Part shown: one piece after another, positions 23,402 to 49,975 of the stretch
Position numbering within the stretch: position 1 is the stretch's first letter
Layout: every line of letters begins with the position of its first letter
Translations under genes and position numbers: made by a program
Origin: an uncultured Gemmatimonadota bacterium
GTDB taxonomy: Bacteria; JAAXHH01
Length of the DNA stretch: 64,000 nt
Assembly (NCBI GenBank): GCA_951812955.1
Contig: OX638340.1
Location: 928,001-992,000, forward strand
Reading direction: 5' to 3'
The notes under the pieces: model-generated
The model's input: the letters and a program-made list of their open reading frames with translations, nothing else
Told to the model about the DNA's origin: nothing
The model's database searches: none

Positions 23402-24232
23402 TCAGCCGCGCGTCCGGTGCCAGGGTTTGAACAGCGCGCGCTGGTCGTCGTCCCAGCGCTTGAAAGTCGATTCGGTTATGTACTGCGCTTCGTCCATGGT
23501 GGCCTGATTCTGCGAAAGCATCCAGTAGGGACCGTATCCTACGTGGATGGTCTTCCGGACCTGGACGGACCGGTTGGTAATGCCGCCGTGCCTCAGGTTT
23601 TCCGTGAACAGAATGGCGTCGCCGGCCTTGACTTCCAGGGCGATCATGCCGGGTTCCTCGTCCGGATTGCCGCCATGGGGGCAGGGAAGGTTCGTCTTGT
23701 GGGTGCCGGGGACAACGGAAAAAGCGCCCTGGTCCCGGGAAACATCGTGAATGAAGTAGATCATGCGCACCATCATGCAGTCGATTCCGCCCGCGTTGAA
23801 CGCGTATCGGTACTTCTGATTCTCCGGACGCATGCCGCCGTGGGAGCCCGACTGGTTGCCGCGGTAGCGTATCCGGATCTCCGAGTTGTTAATCGTGGCC
23901 CTGCCCTGGACGATCCCGCCGATATACGCCATCGTGCGCGGGTCGTTCACCAGTACGTCGAATCGCTCGTCGGCATTCCAGAAATCCTCTATGATAATGG
24001 TTCTTCCTTCTTCATTCGATCCATCGGCGTGGTATCCCAGTTCGGGATTGCGGTGATAGTCCGGTCCCCACGGGCTGGCCTTTCGGGGCGGTTCATCGAG
24101 GTGCCGCAAAGCATGGACTTCCAGTTCGTCCACGGCGGACGCAAGCGAGGACACGGTATCGGAATCCAGCATGTCCTCGATCACGATATAGCCCTGTCGG
24201 TCGAATTCGTAGCGTTCGACATCGTTCATCAC
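23402..24232 (-). CDS. Phytanoyl-CoA dioxygenase (PhyH) family Fe(II)/2-oxoglutarate oxygenase
   Basis: PhyH-like length and His/Asp facial-triad context (VVPGTHK...H). One of five paralogs in this window. Confidence 0.7.
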   Translation of the reverse strand: MMNDVERYEFDRQGYIVIEDMLDSDTVSSLASAVDELEVHALRHLDEPPRKASPWGPDYHRNPELGYHADGSNEEGRTIIIEDFWNADERFDVLVNDPRTMAYIGGIVQGRATINNSEIRIRYRGNQSGSHGGMRPENQKYRYAFNAGGIDCMMVRMIYFIHDVSRDQGAFSVVPGTHKTNLPCPHGGNPDEEPGMIALEVKAGDAILFTENLRHGGITNRSVQVRKTIHVGYGPYWMLSQNQATMDEAQYITESTFKRWDDDQRALFKPWHRTRG

Positions 24233-24238
24233 GACTCC

Positions 24239-25072
24239 TTAGCTGCCGGGTTCCCAGAGTGGAACGTAACCCGCCCGTTCGACGACGGCCTGACCCTCGT
24301 CGCTCAGTATCCAATCGACGAAGGACTTGATGGCGCCACGCGGCGAATGGGCGATGTAGAAATACAGGTACCTGTTCAGAGGATAGGTGCCGTCCCGCAC
24401 GGTGGCGGCCGTGGGAAACACACCGTTGATGCTGCAGGGCACAGTCCCCTCGCCAGATCGGATCCCTCCGTATCCGATCGCGTTGGGCCAGCGCGCCACG
24501 GTCTCGACCACGGCCCTGGAAGTGGGCACGATCCGCGCTTGCGGAGTAAAATCCAACTCCTGAAGCACGAATTGGTCGAAATACACGCGCGTGCCCGAGT
24601 TCGGGGGACGGTTTACCACGAGGATAGGTGCTTGCGGTCCATTAACCTGGCGCCAGTTATCGATCTTTCCCGAGAAAATCGCCCTGACCTGGTCGATGGA
24701 GAGATCGCGAACGGTATTCTCGCGATGGACATATATGCTCAGCGCGTCCCGTGCTGTCAGAATGCTCATGCCGAGCGAACCGCGCTTCTCCAGCAACCGC
24801 TTGACTTCATCGGCAAGCATGGTCCGCGAGGCTGCCCCAATATCGGTTTTCCCGGAGATCAACGACTCGATGCCAAAACGGCTGCTTCCGCTTTCGGTTT
24901 CGATGAACACCCCGGGGTGGGCGTCCATGTATGCGAACGCCCACTGCTGCACCAACCGGTTCATCGTGGTCGACCCGGTGATTTTGAATCGTACGGGTCC
25001 ATCCATCACGGGCGGCGCCGCGATACCGCACGATAAAAGAAACAGGCCCGCTATCCCAATGAGTCGCTTCAT
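24239..25072 (-). CDS. PstS-family periplasmic substrate-binding protein (phosphate/oxyanion-binding-like); an orphan with no adjacent permease or ATPase
   Basis: Signal peptide/lipobox-like N-terminus (LLSCG); GSTTM...SGSSRFGIESL...DIGAASR motifs typical of the PstS family. Confidence 0.62.
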   Translation of the reverse strand: MKRLIGIAGLFLLSCGIAAPPVMDGPVRFKITGSTTMNRLVQQWAFAYMDAHPGVFIETESGSSRFGIESLISGKTDIGAASRTMLADEVKRLLEKRGSLGMSILTARDALSIYVHRENTVRDLSIDQVRAIFSGKIDNWRQVNGPQAPILVVNRPPNSGTRVYFDQFVLQELDFTPQARIVPTSRAVVETVARWPNAIGYGGIRSGEGTVPCSINGVFPTAATVRDGTYPLNRYLYFYIAHSPRGAIKSFVDWILSDEGQAVVERAGYVPLWEPGS

Positions 25073-25092
25073 TTCTCAATCCGCGCCGGCAT

Positions 25093-26751
25093 CTACCGGC
25101 TTTCGATGATGGACCGCAGCCGCGCCACGTTGTACCGTGACTGCGAAACCCATTGCACAGGCCGAAAGGTATCGGCCAGGGCGCCGACGTAGGCGAGCAG
25201 CACCTGGACGTGCTGCCGGACTGCGGCGCGGTTGAACGGCTGTTCGAGATCGTCGAAGGGCGTGTGGTACCGGAGCCGGCCCCAATTAACGAAGATCTCG
25301 ATGCCCGCCTCGCTCGAAAGGTTCTTGAACTGTATCCCTTCCATGAGCAGTATCGCAGGAATGCCTGCCTGGGCAAAAGCGAACTGGTCAGACAGAGCGA
25401 AGGGGTCCAGACCCTGGAACATCAGGGGAATCTGCGAGACCGTCATGTCCAGTTCACCGGCGACTGTTTGCAGCAGTTCTCCCAGGGTGGACAGTTCGGC
25501 GCCGACCCCAATGATATCCCTGAAGGTGTCGACGATGGCGAGTCCATCCACGTTAACCGCCGCCATCGTCCGATGCAGCGGTACGGCCGGGTGGTCCAGG
25601 TAGAATCGGCTGCCGAGCATGCCCTTCTCTTCTCCCGTTACGAAAAGAAAGACCAGAGACCTCCTCGGCGGCTCGGGCATGGCCGCGATCCCGCGGGCTA
25701 TCTCCAGCACACCGGAACACCCCAACGCGTTATCGACCACGCCGTTGTATATGGAATCCGCCAAGACTGGAGGGCCGACTCCCAGGTGGTCGTAATGGGC
25801 CGAGACGATCACGTACTCGTTCCGAAGTATCGGATCGCTGCCCGGCAGGACGCCAATGACATTGGACGAGAAGAACTCGCGCTCCCGGAATCTTCCCACG
25901 AAGCGTAGCTGCGTTTCGAGCGGAAAACTGCGCATTTCGTAATTCAGGTCCATTTCATACACGTCACCCAGACTGTAGGAGGCTCCTTCAAAAAAAACGG
26001 AGGCCCGGGCCGGGTTCACCAGCATGGTCAGGTTCGCGGGCTCACCGTAAAGCAGCGTGACATGCTCGAAGGCGAACATATCCCGCCATTCGCTCCACGT
26101 ACGTCCACCATGTTCCCGGTATGAAGGAATCATGATGCTGCCCACCGCGCCCCTGGACAGGGCCTGGCGCTGCTTCATCCCGGGAATGGAATGGACGGTC
26201 GGTCGTACCCCCTTGAAATAGTCTGTCACTTCCGAGTAGGGTTCGCCCGATAGAAAAACCACGACCGCTCCCTCTACCTGGAGGTCCTGGTAATCGTCGT
26301 AGTCGTATTCCGGCGCGATGATACCATAGCCGACGAACACGATAGGCACCGGCTGGGGTATGATGGTATAGTCCCCAGTGTCGTACAGGAGATAGTCCTG
26401 GACCAATTCGAGTTGATAGACCGTGTCAGCGACAATGACCTGTAACAGGCTACCTGAAAGCGCGTGGCTGCCATGTAGCGGTACACGTTGCAGGTATGAT
26501 CCGTCTTCCGCACCTGGCCTGATTTTCAGGTGCCGCAGTTGGTCTGCAAGGTATTGCGCCGCGGTATCAGCACCCGCGGTGCCCACGGCCCTTCCCATCA
26601 ACCGATCATTGCCCAGGTACTCCGTATGGGACCATATCCGTTCGATGGATACCGATTCCATTGCCATCCGCACCCTGGGGGATAGGGCCTGCTGCGCATG
26701 GCAGGGCGCAACAAGGAGCAATTGCAGCAGCATCAGTGCGTAACGCGGCAT
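25093..26751 (-). CDS. M28 family secreted aminopeptidase with a PA domain
   Basis: Signal peptide; FLFVTGEEKGMLGSRFY M28 metal-binding region. Confidence 0.7.
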   Translation of the reverse strand: MPRYALMLLQLLLVAPCHAQQALSPRVRMAMESVSIERIWSHTEYLGNDRLMGRAVGTAGADTAAQYLADQLRHLKIRPGAEDGSYLQRVPLHGSHALSGSLLQVIVADTVYQLELVQDYLLYDTGDYTIIPQPVPIVFVGYGIIAPEYDYDDYQDLQVEGAVVVFLSGEPYSEVTDYFKGVRPTVHSIPGMKQRQALSRGAVGSIMIPSYREHGGRTWSEWRDMFAFEHVTLLYGEPANLTMLVNPARASVFFEGASYSLGDVYEMDLNYEMRSFPLETQLRFVGRFREREFFSSNVIGVLPGSDPILRNEYVIVSAHYDHLGVGPPVLADSIYNGVVDNALGCSGVLEIARGIAAMPEPPRRSLVFLFVTGEEKGMLGSRFYLDHPAVPLHRTMAAVNVDGLAIVDTFRDIIGVGAELSTLGELLQTVAGELDMTVSQIPLMFQGLDPFALSDQFAFAQAGIPAILLMEGIQFKNLSSEAGIEIFVNWGRLRYHTPFDDLEQPFNRAAVRQHVQVLLAYVGALADTFRPVQWVSQSRYNVARLRSIIESR

Positions 26752-26994
26752 AAGACCGGTTTCTCGTTTGTGGCTGCGGGTGGCGACCCACTGCCGGTCT
26801 GTTCATCGTAACCTGTTCTTTAGGAAGCGATCCTTCAGCATGCTTCGATCCGATGGCTAGTTCAGCAGGTGGAAAACCAAACCAGGACCACGTATCCTCG
26901 TGATTCAAAATAACGCAAGAACGGGAGCCTGACAATATGCGCGTGGACCGTATGGTTTATTTTCCAGTGGCGGTCGTCTACGCCAATCTGAGAG

Positions 26995-27023
26995 TTGACG
27001 CGTCTCACGGGAATCTTTATATA
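26995..27023 (+). promoter_or_regulatory. Putative sigma70 promoter: TTGACG, 17-nt spacer, TATATA, upstream of pntAA
   Basis: Hexamers and spacing read from the sequence in the 400-bp divergent intergenic region. Confidence 0.35.
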
Positions 27024-27153
27024 TAGAACTCGGCCGGCCAGGATCCGGCAGTCGCCAATTAAGCAGCGCTTCATGGGCGGGGCCGGACAAGACGACGGGC
27101 CGTTGCCTCCAGGCGTCCTCGATTACCGAGCAAGCATCCAGTCGGAGCACTAA

Positions 27154-28311: not shown

Positions 28312-28379
28312 CGGGCGGAGCGACTGCGATCGAAGCCGGGTGACGAGCGGAGCACCATCGAACGAAGCGAGGAGTTCCC

Positions 28380-28661
28380 ATGGGTGAAACCATTGCCATT
28401 CTGACTATATTCGTCCTGGCGGTATTCGTCGGATTCGAAGTCATAACCAAGGTGCCGCCCATATTGCATACGCCGCTCATGTCGGGCTCGAACGCCATAT
28501 CGGGCATCACGATCATTGGCGCCATCCTGTCGGCCGGGGCACAGTACAGCACGCTGACAACCGTCCTCGGCTTCGCCGCGGTGGTCTTCGCGACCATCAA
28601 CGTGGTCGGCGGCTACCTCGTTACCAACCGCATGCTGGACATGTTCAAGGGAAAGGAGTAG
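28380..28661 (+). CDS. NAD(P) transhydrogenase alpha subunit part 2 (PntAB, membrane)
   Basis: 93-aa, 3-TM protein ending ...VTNRMLDMFKGKE, typical of PntAB. Confidence 0.8.
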   Translation: MGETIAILTIFVLAVFVGFEVITKVPPILHTPLMSGSNAISGITIIGAILSAGAQYSTLTTVLGFAAVVFATINVVGGYLVTNRMLDMFKGKE

Positions 28662-28665
28662 GCGG

Positions 28666-31300: not shown

Positions 31301-31370
31301 CGCCCCGCGCGCATGATCAGTGGGAGAACGCCCGCCACCCGCGGCGCCTGCATCACCGGCGAAAGGAGGG

Positions 31371-32252
31371 ATGATGCAATCGCAGAAGGCAGATGAGATC
31401 AACGTGGACGACCGGGACTGGCGCGCGTTGACCCGGGGCGAGCGTATCCGGATGATCGAAGAGGAGGGCTATCTGATCATACCGGACTGGATCCCGCCCG
31501 GCTATCTGGCGGAACTGAAAGCGGAATGCAGAAAACTCGAAACGGTCGGACGGGACTACAGCGAAAAGCAACGGGGCTGCAGGGATCCCCACCTGAGCAG
31601 CCGGAAACTGGCCGAACTCATCGCCTACGAACCCACTGTCGCATTCCTGGAAGCGTTGTTCGGCGACCGACTCGTTTTTATTCACTATACCTACGACCGG
31701 TCCGAGCCCGGCACCCCTGGCATCAGTCTACATACCGACGGTCAGCCCTACGGATCCAAGATATTCGGTTACGAAGGGAGTTGTCCCATCACCGTGCGGG
31801 TACTCTACTATCTCGACGACCTGACGATGGACGTATCACCTTTCCGGGTGGTTCCAAGGTCCCATCTCTGCATGCACGCGGACGCCCATCCGTACAAAAG
31901 GTACGACGGGCATCCCGAAGAGGTCGTCGTACCGTGCACCGCGGGTTCGGCGCTGTTTCTCAACCACCGGACGTTTCACGGCACCCTGCCCAACAGGGGA
32001 AACCGCTCGCGCGCCATGCTTGCGGTGGCTTACCGACCGGCCTGGGCCGGTCCGATCGTGGACGTTGCGCCGCGGGACCCGGCTGACCTGGAACGGATGC
32101 CCGATTCCGTCCGTCCCTTCCTGGGCGACCCGAGCATGCGATCTTACGAGTTCGGTGTTGGCAACAAACCCGAGGGGATGTCGGCCGGCGCGCCGGGGAT
32201 GAACCCAAGCAGGTGGGAAAGCCCGCGTGAGGGACGCGCGCGGAAAGCGTAA
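31371..32252 (+). CDS. PhyH family Fe(II)/2OG dioxygenase
   Basis: PhyH-like core with the His-x-Asp...His triad context. An AGGAGG Shine-Dalgarno lies immediately upstream of the ATGATG start. Confidence 0.68.
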   Translation: MMQSQKADEINVDDRDWRALTRGERIRMIEEEGYLIIPDWIPPGYLAELKAECRKLETVGRDYSEKQRGCRDPHLSSRKLAELIAYEPTVAFLEALFGDRLVFIHYTYDRSEPGTPGISLHTDGQPYGSKIFGYEGSCPITVRVLYYLDDLTMDVSPFRVVPRSHLCMHADAHPYKRYDGHPEEVVVPCTAGSALFLNHRTFHGTLPNRGNRSRAMLAVAYRPAWAGPIVDVAPRDPADLERMPDSVRPFLGDPSMRSYEFGVGNKPEGMSAGAPGMNPSRWESPREGRARKA

Positions 32253-35329: not shown

Positions 35330-36190
35330 GTGGCGGTGGAAACGAACACGGACCTGGACCGATACGAGACTACGGGATTTGTGATTCTGAAGGGATTCTA
35401 TCCCGACACGGTCGTAGCGGCGGCCCGGGACGCCGCGGCCGAGCTCGTCGAACGGTTCGCGAAACGGCTTATGTCGTCGGGCACGGTCTCCCGGGATCAT
35501 GCCGAGGCATCGTTTGAAACGCGCCTGGCCCGGCTCTGTGAGGATGCCCCGGACGAAGCGCCCCACATATTTCGTAAGGAACTCCACCTGGCGGGTATGT
35601 ACGACGTGTTTTTCTACCCGCCCCTGCTCGATATCGTGGAATCCCTGATGGGCGAGGAACTTCGTCTTTATCCCAACTATTCCATCCGTCCCAAGCTGCC
35701 CGACCACGCCCCCACGCTCGTCCTCTGGCACCAGGACGGCGGGTATACCTACAAGGTCCACCGAGACGGGGACCACAGCGCGGAGACGGTCGATGCCCTG
35801 CGCATGATCAACGTATGGTCGCCGCTGGTCCCCGCCCGCGAGGACAACGGCTGCATGCAATTCATCCCCGGCACTCACCGAATCGGCATGGCCCGGCACG
35901 AAGACCGCGAATTCTACCTCGAGATATCGCAGGAGGACCTGGCGCCCTACGTGGACCAGGCCGTGTCCATCGAACTCGATCCGGGCGACATCGTCCTCTT
36001 CCACAACATGCTCTACCACCAGGGTCTGCCCAATCGCACCGACCAGGTAAGGTGGAGCATGGACTGGCGCTATCAGGACGCAAGGCAGTCCACGCTGCGC
36101 AGTACGCGGGGCCATCTTGCCCGCAGCCGCCAGTGTCCCGATGAGGTAGTACGTGACGCCAATGACTGGACCAGCCGTGTTTTTCAGTAG
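35330..36190 (+). CDS. PhyH family Fe(II)/2OG dioxygenase
   Basis: PhyH-like core (WHQDGGY...H...). GTG start with GGAG Shine-Dalgarno. The stop is followed by a 2x direct repeat of cggccgcgcagact. Confidence 0.72.
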   Translation: MAVETNTDLDRYETTGFVILKGFYPDTVVAAARDAAAELVERFAKRLMSSGTVSRDHAEASFETRLARLCEDAPDEAPHIFRKELHLAGMYDVFFYPPLLDIVESLMGEELRLYPNYSIRPKLPDHAPTLVLWHQDGGYTYKVHRDGDHSAETVDALRMINVWSPLVPAREDNGCMQFIPGTHRIGMARHEDREFYLEISQEDLAPYVDQAVSIELDPGDIVLFHNMLYHQGLPNRTDQVRWSMDWRYQDARQSTLRSTRGHLARSRQCPDEVVRDANDWTSRVFQ

Positions 36191-37578: not shown

Positions 37579-38325
37579 GTGGCCGAACCCGTGTTCGTGA
37601 AGGACCTGACCAAGACCTACTACGATGAATCCCGCGGTCCCGTACACGCAGTAAGGCAGATCGGCTTTGACTGCCGCCCCGGCGAGATATTCGGGCTCCT
37701 CGGGGCTAACGGCGCCGGCAAGACCACTACCCTGCGCATGCTGACCACGATCCTCAAGCCCACCGCCGGCACCGCGAAGATCATGGGATACGACGTGGCG
37801 GAGGAACCCGTGGAGGTACGCCGACGCCTGGGGTTCTATTCGGCCACGACCGCATTGTATCCAAGGCTTTCCGCCAGGGAAACCATCGAGTTTTTTGCAC
37901 GGATCAACGGGTACCCCGCCTCCGGGACCCCTGCCCGGGTCGATGAGCTGATCGAACGATTCGGAATCGGAGAATATGCCCGCACCCGCATAGACAAACT
38001 CTCCAGCGGCATGAAGCAGAAAGTGGCGATCGCACGGACCGTGGCCCACGATCCGCCGATCCTGGTCTTCGACGAACCCACCGTCGGCCTGGACGTGCTC
38101 AATGCCCTGGAAATGCAGGGCATATTGGCCGAGTTGAAAGCGCAGGGGAAGACCATCCTGTTCTCTACCCATATCATGAGCGAAGCCGAGAAACTGTGCG
38201 ACCGGATTGCCATCATCCACGAGGGCCGGATCCTGGCCTGCGGCACCCTGGAATCGCTTCGTGAACGGACCGGGGCCCATTACCTGGAAGACGTTTTCGT
38301 CTCCTGCATCACAGAGGTCTCATGA
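37579..38325 (+). CDS. ABC transporter ATP-binding protein (NatA-like)
   Basis: Walker A GANGAGKTT, signature LSSGMKQKV, Walker B ILVFDEPT. Confidence 0.85.
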   Translation: MAEPVFVKDLTKTYYDESRGPVHAVRQIGFDCRPGEIFGLLGANGAGKTTTLRMLTTILKPTAGTAKIMGYDVAEEPVEVRRRLGFYSATTALYPRLSARETIEFFARINGYPASGTPARVDELIERFGIGEYARTRIDKLSSGMKQKVAIARTVAHDPPILVFDEPTVGLDVLNALEMQGILAELKAQGKTILFSTHIMSEAEKLCDRIAIIHEGRILACGTLESLRERTGAHYLEDVFVSCITEVS

Positions 38326-40454
38326 ACCGCGCGACGATCGGACTGCTGGTAAAACACGAAATGCGCATGCTCTTGCGGGACCGGCGGACCGTGGTGCTGA
38401 GTATTCTCCTGCCGCTCGTCGTTTTGCCGCTGATACTCTTCGGCTTCAAATTCATGAGCGAATGGCGCAGTGAGCAACTGGACGCAACGACGTATCGCTA
38501 TGCCGTGACCGGCGCCTATGCCGACTCGGTACGGGCACTCATAGGAAGGGGAGCGCGTCTCGCGGAAAAGGACGCGGAGGAAGGCCGGCAACCGGCCTCA
38601 TTCGTCGAGGTGGAGGTGGCCGAACCCGATTCGAGCCTATCCGCCGGCGACCTGGATTTCTACCTGGTAACCCAGACCGGCGCGGAGGCCGATTTGCTCG
38701 ATCTGGCTGTTGCGGGAACAGACTCGGCGATGCGCGCGGACGCGGAAATCGACCGGGCGGGTGAAGATATCGCCGACGTGACCGTGGCGGACGAGCGGTA
38801 TCCGGGCGTGCCCGTGGTCACGGTCTACTTTCGCGCCAACCGGGACGAATCCAGGACGGGCAGCGGCCTGCTGGTGGATCGCCTGGTGGACGCCAGGAAA
38901 CAGGACCGTACCGATGAGCTGCGCAGGCGGGGTTTCGCGGCGGATCCGGAGGAGGCCATAGAGCTTTCGAGGGTGGACGTGGCGACGCCGGAACAGGCAG
39001 CAGGATTCTATTTCGGACGTATCCTGCCGCTTTTTCTCGTATTCCTGACCCTAACCGGCGCTTCGGTGGCGGCCATGGACAGTGTCGCGGGGGAAAAGGA
39101 ACGCGGCTCCCTGGAAACCCTCCTGACCACTTCAGTCAGCCGGTTCGAAATCATTACCGCGAAGCAGTTGACGATCCTGTCGGTCGCGCTCTTCATCACC
39201 CTGGCCCAGGCCGGAAACCTTTTCGTCTATCTTGCCCTCGGATTCATCGAATTCTCCGCGGACCTGGAAATCGACGTGTCACCCGGCGCCGTGCTGGTAT
39301 TGCTTGCCCTTTACGTCCCCGTGGCCGTCGTGGTTTCGTCCCTGCTCCTCCTGGTGTCGGCCTATGCGAAGACTTACCGGGAGACGCAGCTGTACCTCCT
39401 GCCTGTTTTCTTCGGACTCATGATCCTGACGGCGGCGGGCCTGTTGCCGGGTGTTTCCCTCCGCTCGCTGATCGCCGTCGTTCCCGTAGCGAACGTCAGC
39501 GTGGCCGTACGTGAGATCATGGTCGGCCATTACGATATCCCCATGCTCCTGGTAACCTGTGCGGCCATGCTCGCAGCAGCCTTCATGATGCTCAGGTTGT
39601 CGTCGCGCATGCTGGGCATGGAAAGGCTCATCACCGCGCAGGACACGGACGCGGCGGATCTGGAGGGAGGCGCCGCGCTGTTTCCCAGGAGGGTGCTCCT
39701 GTGGTTTGTCGGCATGTGGGCGCTGATTATCATCGCGCCGGCGAACGTCGAGGCGTTGACGCGTCTGGAGGGACAGTGGGCCTTCAATATGTTCGTCATC
39801 TTTTTCGGCGGTTCTTTGCTCATGATCCGTTTACACCGGCTCGACTGGCGGCAGGCCCTGGCGCTCCGTCCGGTGCGTCCGCAGGTCTGGCTGGCGGTAC
39901 TCCTCCTGGTGCCTTCGACCTTGTTGACCGGTATCTTCATTGTAGGACTGTCCAGCGTATTCCTGCCCTTCCCGGAAGAAATGCTGGAGAAATTCGCCAG
40001 CCAACTCATTCCCGAAGACTTCCCGATGTGGCAGATCCTGCTCATGCTGGCCCTCACGCCCGGGATCGTGGAGGAAATGGCCTTCCGGGGACTGTTGCTT
40101 CACGGGCTTCACCGCCGGCTCAGGCCGCTGGCGCTCATCCTGGTGGTCGGCCTGATTTTCGGACTGTTTCACCAGGCCCTTTTCCGGATCATCCCCACGG
40201 CCTACCTGGGTATGGTGCTGACCGCCGTGGCCGTGCTCACGGGTTCGATCCTTCCGTGCATACTACTCCACGCCGGCAACAACGCCTTCGCCTTCCTGCT
40301 CTACCGTTCTGGTACCGAAGTCGAAAATTGGCCCCCGGAACTGCTCCTGTTGAACATCCCCGTTTTTGTGTTCGCGATCTATCTGCTGTATCGATATCGA
40401 ACGCCCTATCCTGGCCTGTTGCCCTTCCGGAAAAAGGTTCCTGAAGACGCGTAG
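38322..40454 (+). CDS. Fusion of an ABC-2 exporter permease with a C-terminal CPBP (CAAX protease / Abi) intramembrane metalloprotease domain
   Basis: N-terminal half resembles the upstream ABC-2 permease. The C-terminal half carries CPBP motifs EEMAFRG, FGLFH and HAGNNAF. A 4-nt overlap with the ATPase gene. Confidence 0.68.
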   Translation: MNRATIGLLVKHEMRMLLRDRRTVVLSILLPLVVLPLILFGFKFMSEWRSEQLDATTYRYAVTGAYADSVRALIGRGARLAEKDAEEGRQPASFVEVEVAEPDSSLSAGDLDFYLVTQTGAEADLLDLAVAGTDSAMRADAEIDRAGEDIADVTVADERYPGVPVVTVYFRANRDESRTGSGLLVDRLVDARKQDRTDELRRRGFAADPEEAIELSRVDVATPEQAAGFYFGRILPLFLVFLTLTGASVAAMDSVAGEKERGSLETLLTTSVSRFEIITAKQLTILSVALFITLAQAGNLFVYLALGFIEFSADLEIDVSPGAVLVLLALYVPVAVVVSSLLLLVSAYAKTYRETQLYLLPVFFGLMILTAAGLLPGVSLRSLIAVVPVANVSVAVREIMVGHYDIPMLLVTCAAMLAAAFMMLRLSSRMLGMERLITAQDTDAADLEGGAALFPRRVLLWFVGMWALIIIAPANVEALTRLEGQWAFNMFVIFFGGSLLMIRLHRLDWRQALALRPVRPQVWLAVLLLVPSTLLTGIFIVGLSSVFLPFPEEMLEKFASQLIPEDFPMWQILLMLALTPGIVEEMAFRGLLLHGLHRRLRPLALILVVGLIFGLFHQALFRIIPTAYLGMVLTAVAVLTGSILPCILLHAGNNAFAFLLYRSGTEVENWPPELLLLNIPVFVFAIYLLYRYRTPYPGLLPFRKKVPEDA

Positions 40455-40583
40455 GACGATCGCAAATCGCGATAGCCGATTGATATTGCCTCGCGTAGCC
40501 TGCAACCTTATATTGCGAACTGTTTTCCGGGAATCCCCGCGTAATCGCGCCTACTCTGGACTGCCGTTATATCCATTCCATAC

Positions 40584-41177
40584 ATGTCCCGTCTTTCCAA
40601 ACATCCGCTAGCACTATTCATCCGAGTCATGCTAAAAAGCCCGACGAGCGTGTGTGCCGTGGCGCCGAGTTCGCGGACGCTCGCCCGGGCGATGGCGAAA
40701 GGGCTGACGATCGGTGACGACGAGTCCGTCGTGGAGCTGGGGCCCGGTACGGGCGCTATCACGGACCAGATCCGCCACATTTTGCCCCATGACGGCGGAT
40801 ACCTGGGCATCGAAATCGAGCCGCGGTTCGTCGACCTGCTGCGGAAACGATATCCCGGTCTTCGATTTGAACAGAACACTGTAGCGAAGGCCTTCCAGCT
40901 GCACGCGAACACGGGAACCCCTCCGGTCAGGGCCGTGATCTCCGGGCTGCCGATCTCGACCATGCCGGTCCAGGTCATTGACGAAATCATCGCGAATCTC
41001 GACCGGCTTATGAAACCCGGTACTGTTTTCCGCATGTTCCAGTATATACACGCCTACTACCTTCCAGCGTCGATTCAGTTCAGACGGCGGATGGCGCCGT
41101 TCTTCTCCTGTTACCGGGTTGAATCAGTTGTCCTCAAGAACCTGCCTCCGGCCCTCGTGATTACCTGGACGCGCTAG
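40584..41177 (+). CDS. Class I SAM-dependent methyltransferase
   Basis: VVELGPGTGAIT SAM-binding motif I. Confidence 0.55.
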   Translation: MSRLSKHPLALFIRVMLKSPTSVCAVAPSSRTLARAMAKGLTIGDDESVVELGPGTGAITDQIRHILPHDGGYLGIEIEPRFVDLLRKRYPGLRFEQNTVAKAFQLHANTGTPPVRAVISGLPISTMPVQVIDEIIANLDRLMKPGTVFRMFQYIHAYYLPASIQFRRRMAPFFSCYRVESVVLKNLPPALVITWTR

Positions 41178-46535: not shown

Positions 46536-46560
46536 CAGCGAAATTCAATCGACTTTTTTA
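46528..46560 (+). terminator. Rho-independent terminator: 8-bp stem (tcgattga / tcaatcga) overlapping the dsbD stop, followed by a T-run
   Basis: Read from the sequence. Confidence 0.55.
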
Positions 46561-46602
46561 ACGCAGTTGTAGATTCTCTATCCAAAGCCAAGGAGGAAAT
46601 CC

Positions 46603-47229
46603 ATGAAGAAGATCCTGATACCGATAGCCGTGGTGGCCGTTGCCGCCGCCTATTTACTCGGCAACTACGGTACGCCGATGGCCGCAGGGGAAGCCCAGGT
46701 GGGCAACCCGGCGCCGGATTTCACGCTGATGGACACCAACGGCAACAACGTGGCGCTTTCGGATTACAGCGGCAAGTACATAGTCCTGGAGTGGATCAAC
46801 TACGACTGTCCCTTCGTGGCCAAGCACTACAACGCCAAGAATATGCAGAGTCTGCAGGACAAGTACCGCGAGCAGGGCGTGGTCTGGCTGGCCATCAACT
46901 CGTCCGCCGAGGGCAAGCAGGGCCAGTTCTCGAACGATGAAATCCACACGCGCCTGAAGAAGCACGCGTCGACCGTGGATGCCTACCTGCTCGATGGCAA
47001 TGGCGAGGTCGGCAGAAAGTACGGCGCCACCCATACGCCACACATGTACATCATCAACCCCGAAGGCACGCTGGTCTACATGGGCGCCATCGACAGCATC
47101 AACTCGGCGAACGTCGCGGATATCCCCAAGGCCGACAATTACGTCGTGATGGCCTTCGACGCGATTTTTGCCGGCAATGATGTGCCGGTCGGGATGACCC
47201 GGGCGTACGGCTGCACGGTGAAGTACTAG
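46603..47229 (+). CDS. Secreted thioredoxin-fold redoxin family protein (TlpA/AhpC-like, single Cys)
   Basis: Signal peptide and a redoxin-like core (YIVLEWINYDCPFV). It sits adjacent to dsbD. Confidence 0.6.
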   Translation: MKKILIPIAVVAVAAAYLLGNYGTPMAAGEAQVGNPAPDFTLMDTNGNNVALSDYSGKYIVLEWINYDCPFVAKHYNAKNMQSLQDKYREQGVVWLAINSSAEGKQGQFSNDEIHTRLKKHASTVDAYLLDGNGEVGRKYGATHTPHMYIINPEGTLVYMGAIDSINSANVADIPKADNYVVMAFDAIFAGNDVPVGMTRAYGCTVKY

Positions 47230-47469
47230 AGGGATTGAGTCCGGGGGAGGCCACAACGCGCGCGCGAAGTGCTCCCCCGGACCGTTGCAGGATATGATCC
47301 GTATGGCCAAAGATTATGTAAGTATGCTGTACGACCTCGCACGCCCATAATCACGTAAAACAATGATTGTTTACGAGATTATCCCGGTTTCTCCGACTAT
47401 ACATTTCAACATGCACTTCACTTCCGGTTTCGCCGCGGCGCAGGTATGTATGGTTGAGGGTCCTCGATT

Positions 47470-47790
47470 ATGGAACTCGCCCACCTGTTGTTAACGCCGG
47501 CCACGCTATTGACGGCCTTCATCTTCTTCTGGAATCAGGCAAAGACCGGAAGGGACGAACTCCGGCGGGAACTCAATACGGATATCGGGGAATTTAAAGA
47601 GGAATTGAAGGAGGAAATCATGGCCTTTCGCCGGGAAGTCGCCGCGGTCCGCGACGAAATGAAGGCCGAGATGAGGGAGGAAATCTCCCCCCTGCGGACG
47701 GAAGTGGCCGCCATCCGTACGGAAATGCACGACATGAATGGTCGCCTCGGACGTGTCGAAGGTCTGCTCAGAACGTCGGACGCCGGCTGA
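47470..47790 (+). CDS. Small membrane-anchored coiled-coil protein of unknown function
   Basis: One N-terminal TM helix then a charged heptad-like region (EFKEELKEEIMAFRREVAAVRDEMKAEMREEI). Its stop lies within a 2x 20-bp tandem duplication. Lower-GC context. Confidence 0.4.
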   Translation: MELAHLLLTPATLLTAFIFFWNQAKTGRDELRRELNTDIGEFKEELKEEIMAFRREVAAVRDEMKAEMREEISPLRTEVAAIRTEMHDMNGRLGRVEGLLRTSDAG

Positions 47791-47813
47791 TTTCATCGGA
47801 CGTCGGCTGATTT
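47776..47813 (+). repeat. Tandem duplication (period 20) of the stop-containing 3' end of the small protein: tcggacg(c/t)cggctgattt x2
   Basis: Read from the sequence. Confidence 0.85.
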
Positions 47814-47975
47814 AAGCGGGCGGTCCGGGTAGTACGCGCGGTCCGGGCTGTCCAGGCGGTCCGTGTAAACCTCTCCTGCGGTTCGTTCGTCGTGCGCCAG
47901 TTTACCTTCCATCCTGCTCCTGTCAGACAGAACGTCCGCAATCATACGATTCTTCATCTGTCGTATACGTAGTCT

Positions 47976-48003
47976 TTGACTAAGTCCCTCCGTTTTCTAT
48001 ATT
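47976..48003 (+). promoter_or_regulatory. Near-consensus sigma70 promoter: TTGACT, 16-nt spacer, TATATT, upstream of the tandem PhyH genes
   Basis: Read from the sequence in an AT-rich intergenic region. Confidence 0.45.
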
Positions 48004-48039
48004 CCTAAACAAGATATCTACTCATCCAGCAACGCCGGA

Positions 48040-48990
48040 ATGGGCTGTTTCCGTTTTGAGGCGACTGGATACCCGGTTTATTACGCAATGCGCCTGGAGA
48101 CCGCCATGGCCATGTTCGGCGACCCTGAAGCGTTCGTCATGATGAGCGAACGCGAGAAGTATCTCTACGATCTCCAGGGGTTCCTCGTGGTGCGCGACCT
48201 GCTTTCCACCGATGAGGTCCGGGCACTGAACGATGCCCTGGACGCCAATCCGGACCGGACCGCCGAACACGGACCGGGCGGCGCGCTGGACGGCACGCCA
48301 CTGGCCGGACCATATTCGCAATACATCCACTACGAGGGCATGCTGACCTGGGACCGGCCCTGGTGCCAGCCCTTCCGCGAACTCCTCGCCCACCCGAAGC
48401 TGATCCCCTATCTCAACACCATGATGGGACGAGGCTGGAAACTGGATCACAATATCGACGTGCTCACTTCGAAACCGGGCGCCCAGGGTACGCCCTTCCA
48501 TGGCAACAGCACGGGTACGTTCGCCGGTTCGACCTATTACACGTACGACGACGGCCGGATGCGCAGCGGCCTGATCGTCTGCCAGTTCTACCTGACCGAC
48601 GTGAATCCGGGAGATGGCGGGCTCACCGTGATTCCCGGCAGTCACAAGGCCAATTTTCCCATGCCGGGATACGTCCGCAATTACGAGGACCACCAGGAGA
48701 TCTTCCATCATATCGCCGTCAAGGCCGGCGACCTGGTCATCTTCAACGAGGCGACGACGCACGGTGCCTTGCCGTGGAAGGGAGTGGGCGAGCGCCGCTG
48801 CGTGCTCCACCGGTACATCCCGAAATACATGCACTACGATGGCGGAGTCTACGAAACGCGCATGCCCGAATGGACGCATGAGCTCACCGATGCCCAGCGG
48901 GCCGTGCTGGAACCACCGTACATCTACAACCGCCCCCTGATCGAGGACGACGGCGAATCGATCGCGCGTCCCCGCAGGGAAGGCATCTGA
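48040..48990 (+). CDS. PhyH family Fe(II)/2OG dioxygenase, tandem paralog 1; the true start is possibly at 48103 or 48139
   Basis: Roughly 60% identical to the next gene (YLYDLQGF, WDRPWC, NPGDGGL, VIPGSHK, FNEATTHG motifs). Confidence 0.75.
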   Translation: MGCFRFEATGYPVYYAMRLETAMAMFGDPEAFVMMSEREKYLYDLQGFLVVRDLLSTDEVRALNDALDANPDRTAEHGPGGALDGTPLAGPYSQYIHYEGMLTWDRPWCQPFRELLAHPKLIPYLNTMMGRGWKLDHNIDVLTSKPGAQGTPFHGNSTGTFAGSTYYTYDDGRMRSGLIVCQFYLTDVNPGDGGLTVIPGSHKANFPMPGYVRNYEDHQEIFHHIAVKAGDLVIFNEATTHGALPWKGVGERRCVLHRYIPKYMHYDGGVYETRMPEWTHELTDAQRAVLEPPYIYNRPLIEDDGESIARPRREGI

Positions 48991-49042
48991 ATCCAACCGG
49001 CACGGGAAGGCCCCGTTCTCCGGCTGCACGGGATCTAAACGC

Positions 49043-49975
49043 GTGTCCGGGCCTACTTCCGACTACCCCGCCGACTACTTGCTACATGCGAAAGTGCAGA
49101 CCGGTATGAACCCGACATCCGAATCCTTCGCCACCATGGCGCCCCATGAGCAGTACCTCTTCGATCTGCAGGGGTTTATCGTGGTGCGCAATGCCCTTGC
49201 GCCCGAACAGGTCGATGCCCTGAACGCGGCGCTGGACGCCAATCACGACAAACGTAAGGAAGACGTGGTCACCCAGACGAGCGAGGCGCTGAAGGGCAAG
49301 CAGTACCGCGGTCTCTACGACGGCATGCTGACGTGGGATCGGCCCTGGTGCCTGCCCTTTCGCGAAGTGCTTGCCAATCCGAAGATCATACCGTACCTGA
49401 ACACGCTGCTGGGCCGGGGGTGGAAGCTGGACCACGATCCGTTCATCTACACATCGAGCGTGGGGACCGAGGGCCTGAACCTCCACGGTTACGGACTGGC
49501 CGAGTTCAACGGTTCCCGGTTCTACCACTACCAGAACGGCGCCATGCGTTGCGGATTGATCAACTGCCAGTACCAGCTGAACGACGTGAACCCTGGCGAC
49601 GGCGGGCTGTGCGTCATCCCGGGCAGCCACAAGGCGAATTTCACCCTGCCCGGCGACATTTCCCGTTACGAAGCCCACCAGGAGATCGTCCGCCACGTGT
49701 CCATGAAAGCGGGCGACCTGGTCATCTTCAACGAGGCGACGACCCACGGGACGCTGCCCTGGAGGGGCGAAGGCGAACGTCGCTCTCTGTTCTACCGGTA
49801 TACCCCCAAGTACATGCATTACACCGGCGGCGTATACGAAACCGGCCTGCCGGAGTGGACGAGAGAGCTTACGGACGCCCAGCGCGCCGTGCTCGAACCG
49901 CCCTATGTCTATCAACGGCCGATGATCGACGACGACGGACAGACGCTGTCGACCCCGCGGCGCGAAGGAGAGTGA
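49043..49975 (+). CDS. PhyH family Fe(II)/2OG dioxygenase, tandem paralog 2; the start is possibly at 49106 or 49136
   Basis: Paralog of the preceding gene with the same motif set. Confidence 0.75.
   Translation: MSGPTSDYPADYLLHAKVQTGMNPTSESFATMAPHEQYLFDLQGFIVVRNALAPEQVDALNAALDANHDKRKEDVVTQTSEALKGKQYRGLYDGMLTWDRPWCLPFREVLANPKIIPYLNTLLGRGWKLDHDPFIYTSSVGTEGLNLHGYGLAEFNGSRFYHYQNGAMRCGLINCQYQLNDVNPGDGGLCVIPGSHKANFTLPGDISRYEAHQEIVRHVSMKAGDLVIFNEATTHGTLPWRGEGERRSLFYRYTPKYMHYTGGVYETGLPEWTRELTDAQRAVLEPPYVYQRPMIDDDGQTLSTPRREGE

What the first reader, a model, noticed from the sequence alone, without database searches (positions are those of the whole stretch)
23402..49975. Five PhyH-family Fe(II)/2OG dioxygenase paralogs within 64 kb
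The PhyH-like genes lie at 23402-24232 (minus), 31371-32252, 35330-36190, 48040-48990 and 49043-49975. The last two are a tandem duplication. Such a density of one oxygenase family suggests lineage-specific expansion for hydroxylating diverse small molecules such as quaternary amines, phosphonates, ectoine-like osmolytes or acyl compounds.
Basis: partly seen in the sequence, partly recalled or inferred. Interest (0 to 1): 0.5.

Follow-up and report, generated by a model that had tools for sequence, protein, structure and literature searches.

The report
Five divergent PhyH-family oxygenase genes
Five iron- and 2-oxoglutarate-dependent oxygenase genes of the PhyH family really do sit in this 64-kb stretch of a sponge- or coral-associated bacterial chromosome, but they are old, unrelated-looking family members rather than a recent expansion, and three of them have the rare metal-binding layout so far described only for the antibiotic enzyme HygX.

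Summary
All five ORFs match Pfam PF05721 (PhyH) at 56-102 bits against a cut-off of 22, and none of about 46 other genes in the window does.

- Apart from PhyH4 and PhyH5 (59% identical), the paralogs share at most 29% identity over partial local alignments (24-26% over the longer ones).
- Four of the five have cross-phylum relatives at 54-70% identity; PhyH2 belongs to a rare subfamily.
- In a tree, PhyH4 and PhyH5 are not sisters.
- The gene arrangement is conserved in more than 20 species-level genomes of a sponge/coral Latescibacterota clade.
- dN/dS against orthologs is 0.09-0.15.
So these are retained ancient subfamilies in separate transcription units among housekeeping genes, not a recent burst or a single pathway.

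None reaches any NCBIfam model for EctD, halogenase, PhnY-type or PtlH enzymes, and none resembles the 2'-O-methylnucleoside demethylases.

The new point concerns the metal site. PhyH2 and PhyH3 have the canonical H-x-D...H triad. PhyH1, PhyH4 and PhyH5 lack that Asp and carry an invariant Glu four residues before the distal His, the relocated carboxylate described for HygX, which is also their best sequence and structure match.

Substrates remain unknown; some gene contexts hint at sugars or glycosides.

The parts
23402..24232 (-). PhyH1: PhyH-family oxygenase with a full HygX-type site (H131-G-G133, R156, E211-x3-H215, R226).
   Evidence: Pfam PhyH 58.2 bits. In 121 family members H131, E211, H215 and R226 are invariant, G133 is present in 118 and R156 in 120. 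MAFFT aligns HygX H102/G104/K137/E202/H206/R217 onto these residues. AF2 model pLDDT 92.2, and the top 16 Foldseek PDB hits are all HygX. dN/dS 0.13.
31371..32252 (+). PhyH2: divergent PhyH-family oxygenase with the canonical triad (H-T-D ... H ... R). An alternative upstream GTG start lies at 31320.
   Evidence: Pfam PhyH 56.3 bits. The triad and Arg are conserved in 14 aligned relatives. The subfamily is rare: 48 representatives at E<=1e-30 among 1.84 billion. Best PDB E-value is only 0.006. dN/dS 0.09.
35330..36190 (+). PhyH3: PhyH-family oxygenase with the canonical triad (W-H134-Q-D136 ... H230 ... R241).
   Evidence: Pfam PhyH 102.2 bits. H134, D136, H230 and R241 are invariant in 121 sequences. 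Cross-phylum relatives at 54-60% identity. Best PDB hits are 6zyk at 1e-9 and PtlH at 1.6e-8.
48040..48990 (+). PhyH4: HygX-like PhyH-family oxygenase (F-H154-G-N ... E237-x3-H241 ... R252). The probable true start is near 48106.
   Evidence: Pfam PhyH 69.6 bits. In 123 sequences H154, E237, H241 and R252 are invariant and the +2 position varies. FHGN is kept in 28 of 29 clade orthologs. A family profile matches HygX at E 1.7e-16. AF2 pLDDT 83.6, with HygX the top Foldseek hit. dN/dS 0.09.
49043..49975 (+). PhyH5: tandem paralog of PhyH4 at 59% identity (L-H-G-Y ... N-E-A-T-T-H-G). The probable true start is near 49106.
   Evidence: Pfam PhyH 63.1 bits. 59% identity to PhyH4. Orthologs keep LHG[Y/H/S]. 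Not sister to PhyH4 in the NJ tree. dN/dS 0.15.
49986..51620 (+). TPP-dependent enzyme (NCBIfam NF004807/PRK06154 family, function uncharacterised), 11 nt downstream of PhyH5.
   Evidence: 680.9 bits against a cut-off of 607; the HACL model scores only 172.8 against 600. Nearest solved structures are glyoxylate carboligase and BbmA, then oxalyl-CoA decarboxylase/HACL. It follows PhyH4-PhyH5 in all syntenic loci.
51677..54212 (+). M81/MlrC-like peptidase (51677-53161) and EamA-family transporter (53223-54212), completing the conserved block PhyH4-PhyH5-TPP-M81-EamA.
   Evidence: Pfam hits. The block is conserved in L001-L002, L005-L024, L027 and L028.
22022..23401 (-). Class-III aminotransferase (GSA-aminomutase-like; not HemL by cut-off), abutting the stop codon of PhyH1.
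   Evidence: Pfam Aminotran_3. NCBIfam hits are all below cut-off. The adjacency is conserved in L029 and L030.
24239..26802 (-). PstS-family substrate-binding protein (24239-25075) and M28 peptidase (25093-26802), upstream of PhyH1 on the same strand.
   Evidence: TIGR02136 scores 208.3 against a cut-off of 206.6. Peptidase_M28 hit. The order M28 - binding protein - PhyH1 - aminotransferase - SulP is conserved in L029 and L030, but the binding protein is only 154 aa there.

Best explanation
The window is a chromosomal segment of a sponge- or coral-associated Latescibacterota bacterium (some NCBI records label the clade Gemmatimonadota). It carries five separate, functional Fe(II)/2-oxoglutarate oxygenase genes of the PhyH family.

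They represent four deep subfamilies: PhyH1, PhyH2, PhyH3, and the PhyH4/PhyH5 pair. They lie in at least four transcription units among housekeeping genes (hemE/hemY, pntAB, purT, dsbD, lpx). This arrangement is retained across the clade rather than created by recent duplication.

Inferred chemistry, from the established mechanism of the enzyme class: each enzyme binds Fe(II) through two His and one carboxylate, and binds 2OG through a conserved Arg. Oxidative decarboxylation of 2OG gives an Fe(IV)=O species that abstracts a hydrogen from the substrate. The outcome is hydroxylation or a derived reaction such as O-demethylation or cyclisation.

Shown by sequence:
- PhyH2 and PhyH3 use the canonical H-x-D...H triad.
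- PhyH1, PhyH4 and PhyH5 lack the Asp and instead have an invariant Glu four residues before the distal His. This is the relocated-carboxylate architecture described for HygX.
- PhyH1 also reproduces HygX's Gly at +2 and a basic residue (R156) at the position of HygX Lys137.

Inferred only: the substrates are unknown. My best guess is polar, probably glycosidic or sugar-derived compounds from the host or from dissolved organic matter, with each paralog acting on a different substrate.
For: Family membership:
- Pfam scores for all five, and no other 2OG-oxygenase gene in the window.

Origin of the window:
- L005 is 97% identical at PhyH4, and 86-92% identical orthologs occur in many sponge/coral MAGs and in closed chromosomes of 3.7-3.9 Mb.

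Old, distinct subfamilies:
- Pairwise identity is at most 29% over partial local alignments, except 59% for PhyH4/PhyH5.
- Cross-phylum relatives at 54-70% identity.
- PhyH4 and PhyH5 are not sisters.

Conserved and under selection:
- Synteny holds in more than 20 species representatives.
- dN/dS is 0.09-0.15, similar to PurT (0.12) and DsbD (0.15).

Metal site:
- Family-wide invariance of H, E(-4), H and R in the PhyH1 and PhyH4/5 families, with no conserved acid at +2.
- In the canonical families, H-x-D is invariant in both; position -4 is an invariant Asn in PhyH3 and variable in PhyH2.
- The HygX motif H-X-G...E-X3-H and Lys137 are taken from PMC13374393. I verified the numbering on the PDB sequence.
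- HygX aligns residue for residue to the PhyH1 family.
- HygX is the best PDB match by sequence and by predicted structure for both PhyH4 and PhyH1.

Sugar hint:
- HygX itself acts on a glycoside.
- A Paenibacillus member of the PhyH3 family sits in an operon AraC - binding protein - two permeases - PhyH - GFO/IDH/MocA.
- An AraC regulator or a CBM9/DUF4838 gene lies next to PhyH1-family genes.
- ThuA and GFO/IDH/MocA genes are present in the window.
Against: - No substrate was tested, and no gene context is conserved outside the clade. The sugar or glycoside idea is therefore weak.
- The tools return no model coordinates, so I could not verify that E237/E211 lies within ligand distance of the two His.
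- For the PhyH4/5 family the alignment of the proximal His to HygX is ambiguous. HMMER and MAFFT place HygX H102 ten residues upstream of H154, because HygX has a 10-residue insertion.
- PhyH4 and PhyH5 have N or Y, not Gly, at +2, and Val at the Lys137 position. Their site is not identical to that of HygX.
- The genome-wide PhyH count, and hence true enrichment, was not obtained.
Confidence: 0.8

Rival explanations
1. One reading: a lineage-specific expansion by gene duplication. It would have produced a set of related hydroxylases for small molecules such as quaternary amines, phosphonates, ectoine-like osmolytes or acyl compounds.
For: - Five family members in 64 kb, two of them adjacent.
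- A PstS-family binding protein and an aminotransferase flank PhyH1, which could hint at phosphonate or amine metabolism.
- Poribacterial PhyH genes include PhnY-like ones (PMC3909097).
Against: - Paralogs share at most 29% identity over partial local alignments, except one pair at 59%.
- Four of the five have closer relatives in other phyla than in this window.
- PhyH4 and PhyH5 are not sisters.
- The arrangement is conserved across more than 20 species.
- None reaches the EctD, PhnY-type or halogenase cut-offs.
- No HD-domain PhnZ partner is present in the window.
Confidence: 0.08
2. PhyH4-PhyH5 plus the downstream TPP enzyme form a bacterial alpha-oxidation module. In this reading, acyl-CoA 2-hydroxylation is followed by cleavage by a 2-hydroxyacyl-CoA lyase, as in peroxisomal phytanic acid breakdown.
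For: - The TPP enzyme starts 11 nt after PhyH5 and is co-conserved with the pair in every syntenic locus.
- 2-hydroxyacyl-CoA lyases and oxalyl-CoA decarboxylases are among its solved relatives, at E about 1e-41 to 1e-37.
- In the human pathway, PHYH acts immediately upstream of HACL1 (established knowledge).
Against: - The TPP enzyme belongs to NF004807/PRK06154 (681 bits against 607). It scores only 173 against a cut-off of 600 on the HACL model.
- Glyoxylate carboligase and BbmA are closer solved relatives.
- PhyH4 matches HygX (E 1e-9; family profile 1.7e-16) far better than human PHYH (5.5e-5; 2.7e-6).
- No acyl-CoA ligase or dehydrogenase lies in the block.
- The PhyH-TPP link is absent outside the clade.
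Confidence: 0.08
3. PhyH1, PhyH4 and PhyH5 are not hydroxylase-type enzymes. Lacking the Asp of H-x-D, they would be either halogenases (open coordination site, as in SyrB2 or WelO5) or catalytically dead pseudoenzymes.
For: - Gly at +2 in PhyH1 resembles the H-x-G/A motif of halogenases, and the review itself calls HygX's motif 'reminiscent' of halogenases.
- Weak matches of PhyH4 and PhyH5 to the chlorinating-enzyme model (E 5e-5).
- Sponge microbiomes are rich in halogenated products (general knowledge).
Against: - An invariant Glu at -4 from the distal His, the residue the review describes as HygX's relocated acidic triad residue, occurs in all 121 and all 123 family members.
- The Arg expected to bind 2OG is invariant.
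- dN/dS is 0.09-0.15, which argues against pseudoenzymes drifting.
- Scores on the chlorinase model are about 23 bits against a cut-off of 226, and PhyH1 gives no hit.
- No carrier-protein or NRPS genes lie nearby.
- PhyH4 and PhyH5 have bulky N or Y at +2 rather than Ala or Gly.
Confidence: 0.06
4. The five oxygenases cooperate in one natural-product or catabolic gene cluster spanning 23-50 kb.
For: - Several tailoring-type oxygenases, a methyltransferase, ABC transporters, an aminotransferase and peptidases lie in one region.
- Their closest solved relatives (HygX, PtlH, SnoK, AndA) are natural-product enzymes.
Against: - The genes between them are core housekeeping genes: pntAA/AB/B, purT, peroxiredoxins and dsbD. 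hemE/hemY and the lpx/bamA block flank the region.
- There is no PKS, NRPS, terpene synthase or glycosyltransferase scaffold gene.
- PhyH1 is on the opposite strand from the other four, and there are long intergenic gaps.
- Relatives in other phyla occur as isolated genes.
Confidence: 0.04

Closest known systems
HygX (hygromycin B orthoester-forming Fe(II)/2OG oxygenase; PDB 4XC9, 4XCA, 4XCB, 4ZPI)
   Same: - Best PDB match of PhyH4 by sequence: E 1.1e-9 for the single sequence and 1.7e-16 for the family profile.
- For PhyH1 it is the second-best sequence match (E 2.2e-6, against TlxI at 1.7e-6).
- Best match of both predicted structures: the top 11 Foldseek hits for PhyH4 and the top 16 for PhyH1.
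- Same relocated carboxylate, E-X3-H, in PhyH1, PhyH4 and PhyH5.
- PhyH1 additionally shares H-X-G and a basic residue at the Lys137 position.
   Different: - Only about 20% identity.
- HygX has a 10-residue insertion after the proximal His.
- PhyH4 and PhyH5 have N or Y at +2 and Val at the Lys137 position.
- No orthosomycin or aminoglycoside gene cluster surrounds these genes.
- They belong to large environmental families spanning many phyla rather than an actinomycete antibiotic pathway.
Over-representation of the PhyH family in Poribacteria (Kamke et al. 2014, PMC3909097)
   Same: - Many highly diverse PF05721 genes per genome in uncultivated sponge symbionts. That study found 305 sequences in 193 clusters at 60% identity, more than 1.9% of genes, mostly of unknown function.
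- Poribacterial proteins are among the homologs of PhyH4, at about 66% identity.
   Different: - A different phylum: Latescibacterota, in the FCB group.
- The genome-wide frequency here is unknown.
- That paper did not analyse metal-site variants.
- No PhnY-PhnZ pair is present in this window.
Human phytanoyl-CoA 2-hydroxylase (PHYH, PDB 2A1X), founding member of PF05721
   Same: Same Pfam family and DSBH fold, the same Arg for 2OG binding, and the conserved PG(S/T)H(K/R) segment.
   Different: - E-values are only 5.5e-5 (PhyH4), 1.6e-6 (PhyH3) and 0.086 (PhyH1), with no hit for PhyH2.
- The canonical H-x-D is absent from three of the five.
- There is no evidence for acyl-CoA substrates.
PHYHD1/FJS 2'-O-methylnucleoside demethylases (PMC12709175)
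   Same: - Members of PF05721.
- They include an enzyme from Poribacteria.
- They show that bacterial PhyH proteins can attack sugar O-methyl groups.
   Different: At most 28% identity to any of the five, over partial alignments. Those enzymes use the canonical H-X-D...H triad.
EctD, PhnY-type hydroxylases, PtlH, and SyrB2/CytC3-type halogenases
   Same: Same superfamily, with weak HMM similarity.
   Different: All scores are far below the curated cut-offs. For example, ectoine hydroxylase 19.6-29 against 336.5, chlorinating enzyme 22.6-51 against 226, methylphosphonate hydroxylase 15.5-31 against 500, and PtlH 38 against 550.

Membership tests
Pfam PF05721 (PhyH) Fe(II)/2OG oxygenase family | Match to the family HMM above the gathering score of 22 bits. 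| tested here: met
   Scores of 58.2, 56.3, 102.2, 69.6 and 63.1 bits for PhyH1-5, each covering nearly the whole 213-position model.
Pfam PF05721 (PhyH) Fe(II)/2OG oxygenase family | Canonical 2-His-1-carboxylate triad H-x-D/E ... H. | tested here: not met
   Met by PhyH2 (H-T-D...H) and PhyH3 (H-Q-D...H), with family-wide invariance. Not met by PhyH1 (H-G-G), PhyH4 (H-G-N) or PhyH5 (H-G-Y), and the +2 position is non-acidic or variable across their families.
Pfam PF05721 (PhyH) Fe(II)/2OG oxygenase family | Basic residue about 11 positions after the distal His, binding the C5 carboxylate of 2OG. | tested here: met
   The Arg is invariant across the five paralogs (column R226 of alignment A1). 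It is invariant within three families and nearly so in the fourth (R252, R226, R241, R214).
HygX-type relocated-carboxylate oxygenases | H-X-G at the proximal site, combined with E-X3-H at the distal His. | tested here: met
   PhyH1: H131-G-G133 and E211-N-L-R-H215, aligned column for column with HygX H102/G104/E202/H206. PhyH4 and PhyH5 have E-X3-H (NEATTHG) but N or Y instead of Gly, so they meet this only partly.
HygX-type relocated-carboxylate oxygenases | Basic residue (HygX Lys137) filling the space left by the missing Asp. | tested here: inconclusive
   The PhyH1 family has Arg156 (120 of 121) at the aligned position. The PhyH4/5 family has Val180 there. The spatial position could not be checked because no coordinates are returned.
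HygX-type relocated-carboxylate oxygenases | Glu actually ligates the metal (three-dimensional geometry). | not testable with these tools
   AF2 models were obtained (pLDDT 83.6 and 92.2) and HygX is their top structural match.
HygX-type relocated-carboxylate oxygenases | Location in an orthosomycin or aminoglycoside biosynthetic cluster, with orthoester formation as the reaction. | tested here: not met
   Neighbours are housekeeping and transport genes. There are no glycosyltransferases or aminocyclitol genes.
Ectoine hydroxylase EctD (TIGR02408) | Score at or above the curated cut-off of 336.5 bits. | tested here: not met
   Scores of 19.6 (PhyH1), 29 (PhyH4) and 23.2 (PhyH5). No hit for PhyH2 or PhyH3.
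Fe/2OG halogenases (TIGR01762 chlorinating enzyme) | Score at or above 226.3 bits; H-x-A/G with no replacement carboxylate; a carrier-protein context. | tested here: not met
   Scores of 51.3 (PhyH3, which has the canonical H-Q-D), 22.8 and 22.6 (PhyH4, PhyH5), and none for PhyH1. The invariant Glu at -4 supplies a carboxylate. No carrier-protein genes lie nearby.
PhnY-type phosphonate hydroxylases (NF052437) | Score at or above 500 bits, and an adjacent HD-domain PhnZ. | tested here: not met
   Scores of 30.8 (PhyH3) and 15.5 (PhyH5). No HD-domain gene is present in the window.
PHYHD1/FJS 2'-O-methylnucleoside demethylases | Close sequence relationship to the tested enzymes. | tested here: not met
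   BLASTP against four tested demethylases taken from the paper's supplement gives at most 28% identity and a best E-value of 7e-10, over a partial alignment to PhyH3.
2-hydroxyacyl-CoA lyase (for the adjacent TPP enzyme; NF058623) | Score at or above 600 bits. | tested here: not met
   Score of 172.8 bits. The protein instead belongs to NF004807/PRK06154, at 680.9 against a cut-off of 607.

The most novel reading that the evidence does not exclude
PhyH1-type and PhyH4/PhyH5-type proteins define two large, cross-phylum, entirely uncharacterised enzyme families. They occur in Latescibacterota, Poribacteria, Planctomycetota, Armatimonadota, Zixibacteria and Chloroflexi. In both families the HygX-style relocated carboxylate (H ... 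E-x3-H, no Asp) is the rule rather than a one-off adaptation of a single antibiotic enzyme.

If so, a second metal-site architecture is widespread in the PhyH clade. It could be tuned to bulky glycoside or glycan substrates in host-associated and particle-associated heterotrophs, and could carry out chemistry beyond simple hydroxylation.
Probability: 0.45. Interest if true: 0.55.

Novelty: new member of a known kind. Interest (0 to 1): 0.35.

Why it matters
PhyH-family proteins are the most abundant Pfam family in some sponge symbionts, and almost none has a known substrate (PMC3909097). This window shows the same accumulation in a second symbiont phylum.

It also splits the 'PhyH' label into chemically different groups: two canonical enzymes and three with a HygX-type iron site. 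That split gives concrete targets for experiment (PhyH1 E211, G133 and R156; PhyH4 E237).

It is also a caution for annotation pipelines and motif-based screens. Screens that treat a missing Asp as a sign of a halogenase or a dead enzyme would misread these proteins.

It does not reveal a new kind of system.

Tried and rejected
- The exact PhyH4 protein was looked up in the assembly index and is not on record.
- An exact 60-mer from PhyH4 was searched in the GTDB representative genomes, with no match. The taxon was then inferred from 86-97% identical orthologs.
- Alpha-oxidation idea (PhyH plus a HACL-like TPP enzyme): the TPP enzyme belongs to PRK06154 and is far below the HACL cut-off. Kept only as a low-probability rival.
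- Phosphonate idea for PhyH1 (PstS-like neighbour). There is no PhnZ/HD gene, the PhnY-type model gives no hit for PhyH1, the binding protein is truncated in relatives, and the context is not conserved in other phyla.
- Similarity to the new 2'-O-methylnucleoside demethylases: none.
- Riboswitch or other RNA elements upstream of the PhyH genes: no Rfam hit at gathering score anywhere in the window.
- Promoter and terminator scan around the PhyH4 block. One 10/12 sigma-70-like site lies at 47976-48003, upstream of PhyH4, but the counts are not above shuffled expectation. No weight was given to it.
- The original HygX structure paper (PMC4577193) is not held. The motif was taken from a 2026 review and checked against the PDB sequence.
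- The afdb50 fold library is not available.
- A literature search for PhyH enrichment in sponge Latescibacterota found no mention.

Full report
**1. Observation**

ORF listing and a codon-position GC analysis give about 51 probable genes in the window.

| Gene | Coordinates | Bits |
|---|---|---|
| PhyH1 | 23402-24232 (-) | 58.2 |
| PhyH2 | 31320/31371-32252 (+) | 56.3 |
| PhyH3 | 35330-36190 (+) | 102.2 |
| PhyH4 | 48040-48990 (+) | 69.6 |
| PhyH5 | 49043-49975 (+) | 63.1 |

- Pfam scans of the remaining ORFs and a phmmer scan of all six-frame ORFs found no sixth member and no other 2OG-oxygenase family.
- Ortholog lengths suggest that PhyH4 and PhyH5 start at internal ATGs near 48106 and 49106.
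- Five of about 51 genes is far above published frequencies: under 0.049% of genes in ordinary genomes, and about 1.9% in Poribacteria (PMC3909097).

**2. What the region is**

The window is ordinary chromosome of a Gram-negative bacterium. It carries:
- futalosine-pathway menaquinone genes;
- hemE and hemY;
- pntAA, pntAB and pntB;
- purT;
- dsbD and peroxiredoxins;
- the block lpxD - lpxC/fabZ - lpxA - skp - bamA.

The exact sequence is not among the GTDB representative genomes. However, PhyH4 orthologs at 86-97% identity occur in many MAGs from sponges and corals, and in closed chromosomes of 3.7-3.9 Mb. These records are labelled Candidatus Latescibacterota, Gemmatimonadota/Gemmatimonadetes, or simply 'bacterium'.

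The five PhyH genes are interspersed with these housekeeping genes, on both strands, in at least four transcription units:
- M28 peptidase - PstS-like binding protein - PhyH1 - class-III aminotransferase (- SulP), on the minus strand with gaps of 6-23 nt;
- pntAB - purT - PhyH2;
- PhyH3, standing after a 475-nt gap;
- PhyH4 - PhyH5 - TPP enzyme - M81 peptidase - EamA transporter.

This is not one gene cluster.

**3. Age and relationships of the paralogs**

- BLASTP among the five gives 59% identity for PhyH4/PhyH5. Every other pair shares at most 29% identity over partial local alignments (24-26% over the longer ones), and some pairs are barely detectable.
- Each of PhyH1, PhyH3 and PhyH4/5 retrieves hundreds of proteins. 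The top 120 hits are all at least 53% identical (51% in one case). They come from Planctomycetota, Armatimonadota, Zixibacteria, Poribacteria, Chloroflexi, Actinobacteria and a cultured Paenibacillus.
- PhyH2 belongs to a rare subfamily: 48 representatives at E<=1e-30 among 1.84 billion.
- In a neighbour-joining tree PhyH4 and PhyH5 are not sisters. 66 of 120 homologs are closer to PhyH5, and more than 100 sequences, including ones named Poribacteria by their source, join the PhyH5 branch without PhyH4 among them.
- The PhyH4 - PhyH5 - TPP - M81 - EamA block is conserved in 24 of the 28 loci compared. Twenty-two of the 24 GTDB species-representative loci carry both genes.
- Where the loci reach far enough, PhyH2, PhyH3 and the PhyH1 block are also in place.
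- dN/dS against orthologs is 0.13 (PhyH1), 0.09 (PhyH2), 0.09 (PhyH4) and 0.15 (PhyH5). PhyH3 is saturated at synonymous sites, with pN/pS 0.19. These values are comparable to PurT at 0.12, DsbD at 0.15 and the TPP enzyme at 0.06.

All five are therefore functional genes, retained since before the clade diversified. 'Lineage-specific expansion' by duplication is not supported.

**4. Placement among characterised enzymes**

- No paralog approaches the NCBIfam cut-offs for ectoine hydroxylase, chlorinating enzymes, PhnY-type methylphosphonate hydroxylase, PtlH or the sporadic carbohydrate-cluster oxygenases.
- Best PDB sequence matches are remote:

| Gene | Best PDB matches |
|---|---|
| PhyH4 | HygX, 1e-9 |
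| PhyH1 | TlxI, 1.7e-6, and HygX, 2.2e-6 |
| PhyH3 | 6zyk ('monooxygenase/uncharacterized protein'), 1e-9; PtlH, 1.6e-8 |
| PhyH2 | SptF, 0.006 |

- Comparison with four experimentally tested 2'-O-methylnucleoside demethylases of this family gives at most 28% identity. Their sequences came from the supplement of PMC12709175.

None of the five falls in a known substrate clade.

**5. The metal site: the unexpected part**

In the alignment of the five paralogs, the proximal His, the distal His and the 2OG-binding Arg are invariant. The acidic residue of the H-x-D/E motif is present only in PhyH2 (H-T-D) and PhyH3 (H-Q-D). PhyH1 reads H-G-G, PhyH4 H-G-N and PhyH5 H-G-Y.

Exactly these three carry a Glu four residues before the distal His (TENLRHG and NEATTHG). 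PhyH2 has His at that position and PhyH3 has Asn.

This is a property of the families, not of single sequences:
- In 123 PhyH4/5-type sequences, H154, E237, H241 and R252 are invariant. The +2 position is variable: S, H, N, P, A and D are the six commonest residues.
- In 121 PhyH1-type sequences, H131, E211, H215 and R226 are invariant, and G133 is present in 118.
- Clade orthologs keep FHGN (28 of 29) and LHG[Y/H/S].
- In the canonical PhyH3 family, H134, D136, H230 and R241 are invariant, and position -4 is an invariant Asn.

A 2026 review describes this same arrangement for HygX. It writes the motif as 'H-X-G ... E-X3-H', with the acidic residue relocated and Lys137 occupying the resulting gap (PMC13374393).

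- I verified the numbering on the PDB sequence: H102, G104, K137, E202 and H206.
- Adding HygX to the PhyH1-family alignment gives H102/H131, G104/G133, K137/R156, E202/E211, H206/H215 and R217/R226. HygX has a 10-residue insertion after the H-G-G.
- R156 is conserved in 120 of 121 sequences.
- HygX is the best PDB match for a profile of the PhyH4/5 family, at E 1.7e-16. The next matches are DhiD at 9e-8 and human PHYH at 2.7e-6.
- HygX is also the best Foldseek match for the AF2 models of PhyH4 (pLDDT 83.6; E 6e-16) and PhyH1 (pLDDT 92.2; the top 16 hits are all HygX, TM 0.65-0.76).

Caveats:
- For the PhyH4/5 family the automatic alignments place HygX H102 ten residues upstream of H154, because of the indel.
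- PhyH4 and PhyH5 lack the Gly and the basic filler residue.
- I could not measure ligand geometry, because the models' coordinates are not returned.

**6. Function**

- Shown: family membership, conservation of residues for Fe and 2OG binding, and purifying selection.
- Inferred from the established mechanism of Fe(II)/2OG oxygenases: formation of a ferryl intermediate, then hydrogen abstraction from the substrate.
- Substrates are not determined. Gene context is conserved only within the clade.

Contexts elsewhere:
- Outside the clade, PhyH1- and PhyH4-type genes are isolated or lie beside other PhyH genes.
- A Paenibacillus member of the PhyH3 family lies in an operon AraC - binding protein - two permeases - PhyH - GFO/IDH/MocA.
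- An AraC regulator or a CBM9/DUF4838 gene neighbours PhyH1-type genes.
- ThuA and GFO/IDH/MocA genes are in the window.
- HygX and several of the other structural relatives act on sugar moieties.

From this I infer, with low confidence (about 0.3), glycoside- or sugar-derived substrates.

The TPP enzyme after PhyH5 is a member of the uncharacterised PRK06154 family and not a 2-hydroxyacyl-CoA lyase by model score. An alpha-oxidation module is therefore unlikely.

**7. Comparison with what is known, novelty and verdict**

- High copy number and diversity of PF05721 genes is already described for sponge-associated Poribacteria.
- The relocated carboxylate is already described for HygX.
- In the held literature I found no report of PhyH abundance in sponge Latescibacterota. 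I also found no report that the HygX-type site characterises large environmental families. That library is incomplete.

I therefore class the finding as new members of a known kind, with a moderately interesting sub-result: three of the five, and their large families, are HygX-type. Interest is 0.35.

Noticed in passing
window 58987-60492 (-): LpxC and FabZ are fused in one ORF. It lies within a conserved block lpxD - lpxC/fabZ - lpxA - skp - bamA at the right end of the window.
   Followed up: no
window 17220-18737 (+): Uroporphyrinogen decarboxylase (HemE) carries an N-terminal extension of about 160 aa. The extension has a weak HemD/HEM4 match (E 1.6e-4, below the gathering score), so this may be a HemD-HemE fusion.
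   Followed up: no
window 38265-40454 (+): An ABC-2 type permease is fused to a C-terminal CAAX/Rce1-like protease domain. It is the last gene of a three-gene ABC-2 transporter set directly downstream of PhyH3. The set is absent from the more distant relative L001, where PhyH3 is followed directly by the methyltransferase.
   Followed up: partly
window 56330-58141 (-): A 603-aa ORF has no Pfam or NCBIfam hit in my scans. It is conserved at 84-96% identity in all relatives, and its ortholog in L001 is tagged PF26099 (DUF8034).
   Followed up: no
window 24239-25075 (-); L029 and L030 7527-7991: The PstS-family binding protein next to PhyH1 is 278 aa here but only 154 aa in two related closed genomes. 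SulP is fragmented in L029. These may reflect gene decay or long-read frameshift errors.
   Followed up: no
L028 9550-10504: The PhyH4 ortholog is split into two overlapping ORFs in this relative. This is either a frameshift or pseudogene, or an assembly error.
   Followed up: no
window 47458-47790 (+): A small (110 aa) coiled-coil, apolipoprotein-like ORF lies upstream of PhyH4. It is present in two copies in L005, L014 and L022, and no match to it was reported in several other relatives.
   Followed up: no
window 40545-41177 (+): A methyltransferase shows weak similarity to the ornithine-lipid N-methyltransferase OlsG (72 bits against a cut-off of 350) and to the phospholipid N-methyltransferase PmtA. 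It is conserved next to a DUF5916/CBM9 protein.
   Followed up: no
window 3-4675 (+): A futalosine-pathway menaquinone gene set is present: a UbiD-like decarboxylase, two radical-SAM CofH/MqnC-type genes and an MqnA-like gene.
   Followed up: no
L036 313-3065; L039 6953-8873: In a marine-metagenome contig that also carries the protein named Candidatus Poribacteria in NCBI (L036), and in a 7-Mb genome (L039), PhyH4-type genes again lie beside other PhyH genes. The arrangements are PhyH - SDR - PhyH, and a divergent PhyH pair followed by an amidohydrolase. Local pairing of PhyH genes therefore recurs across phyla.
   Followed up: partly
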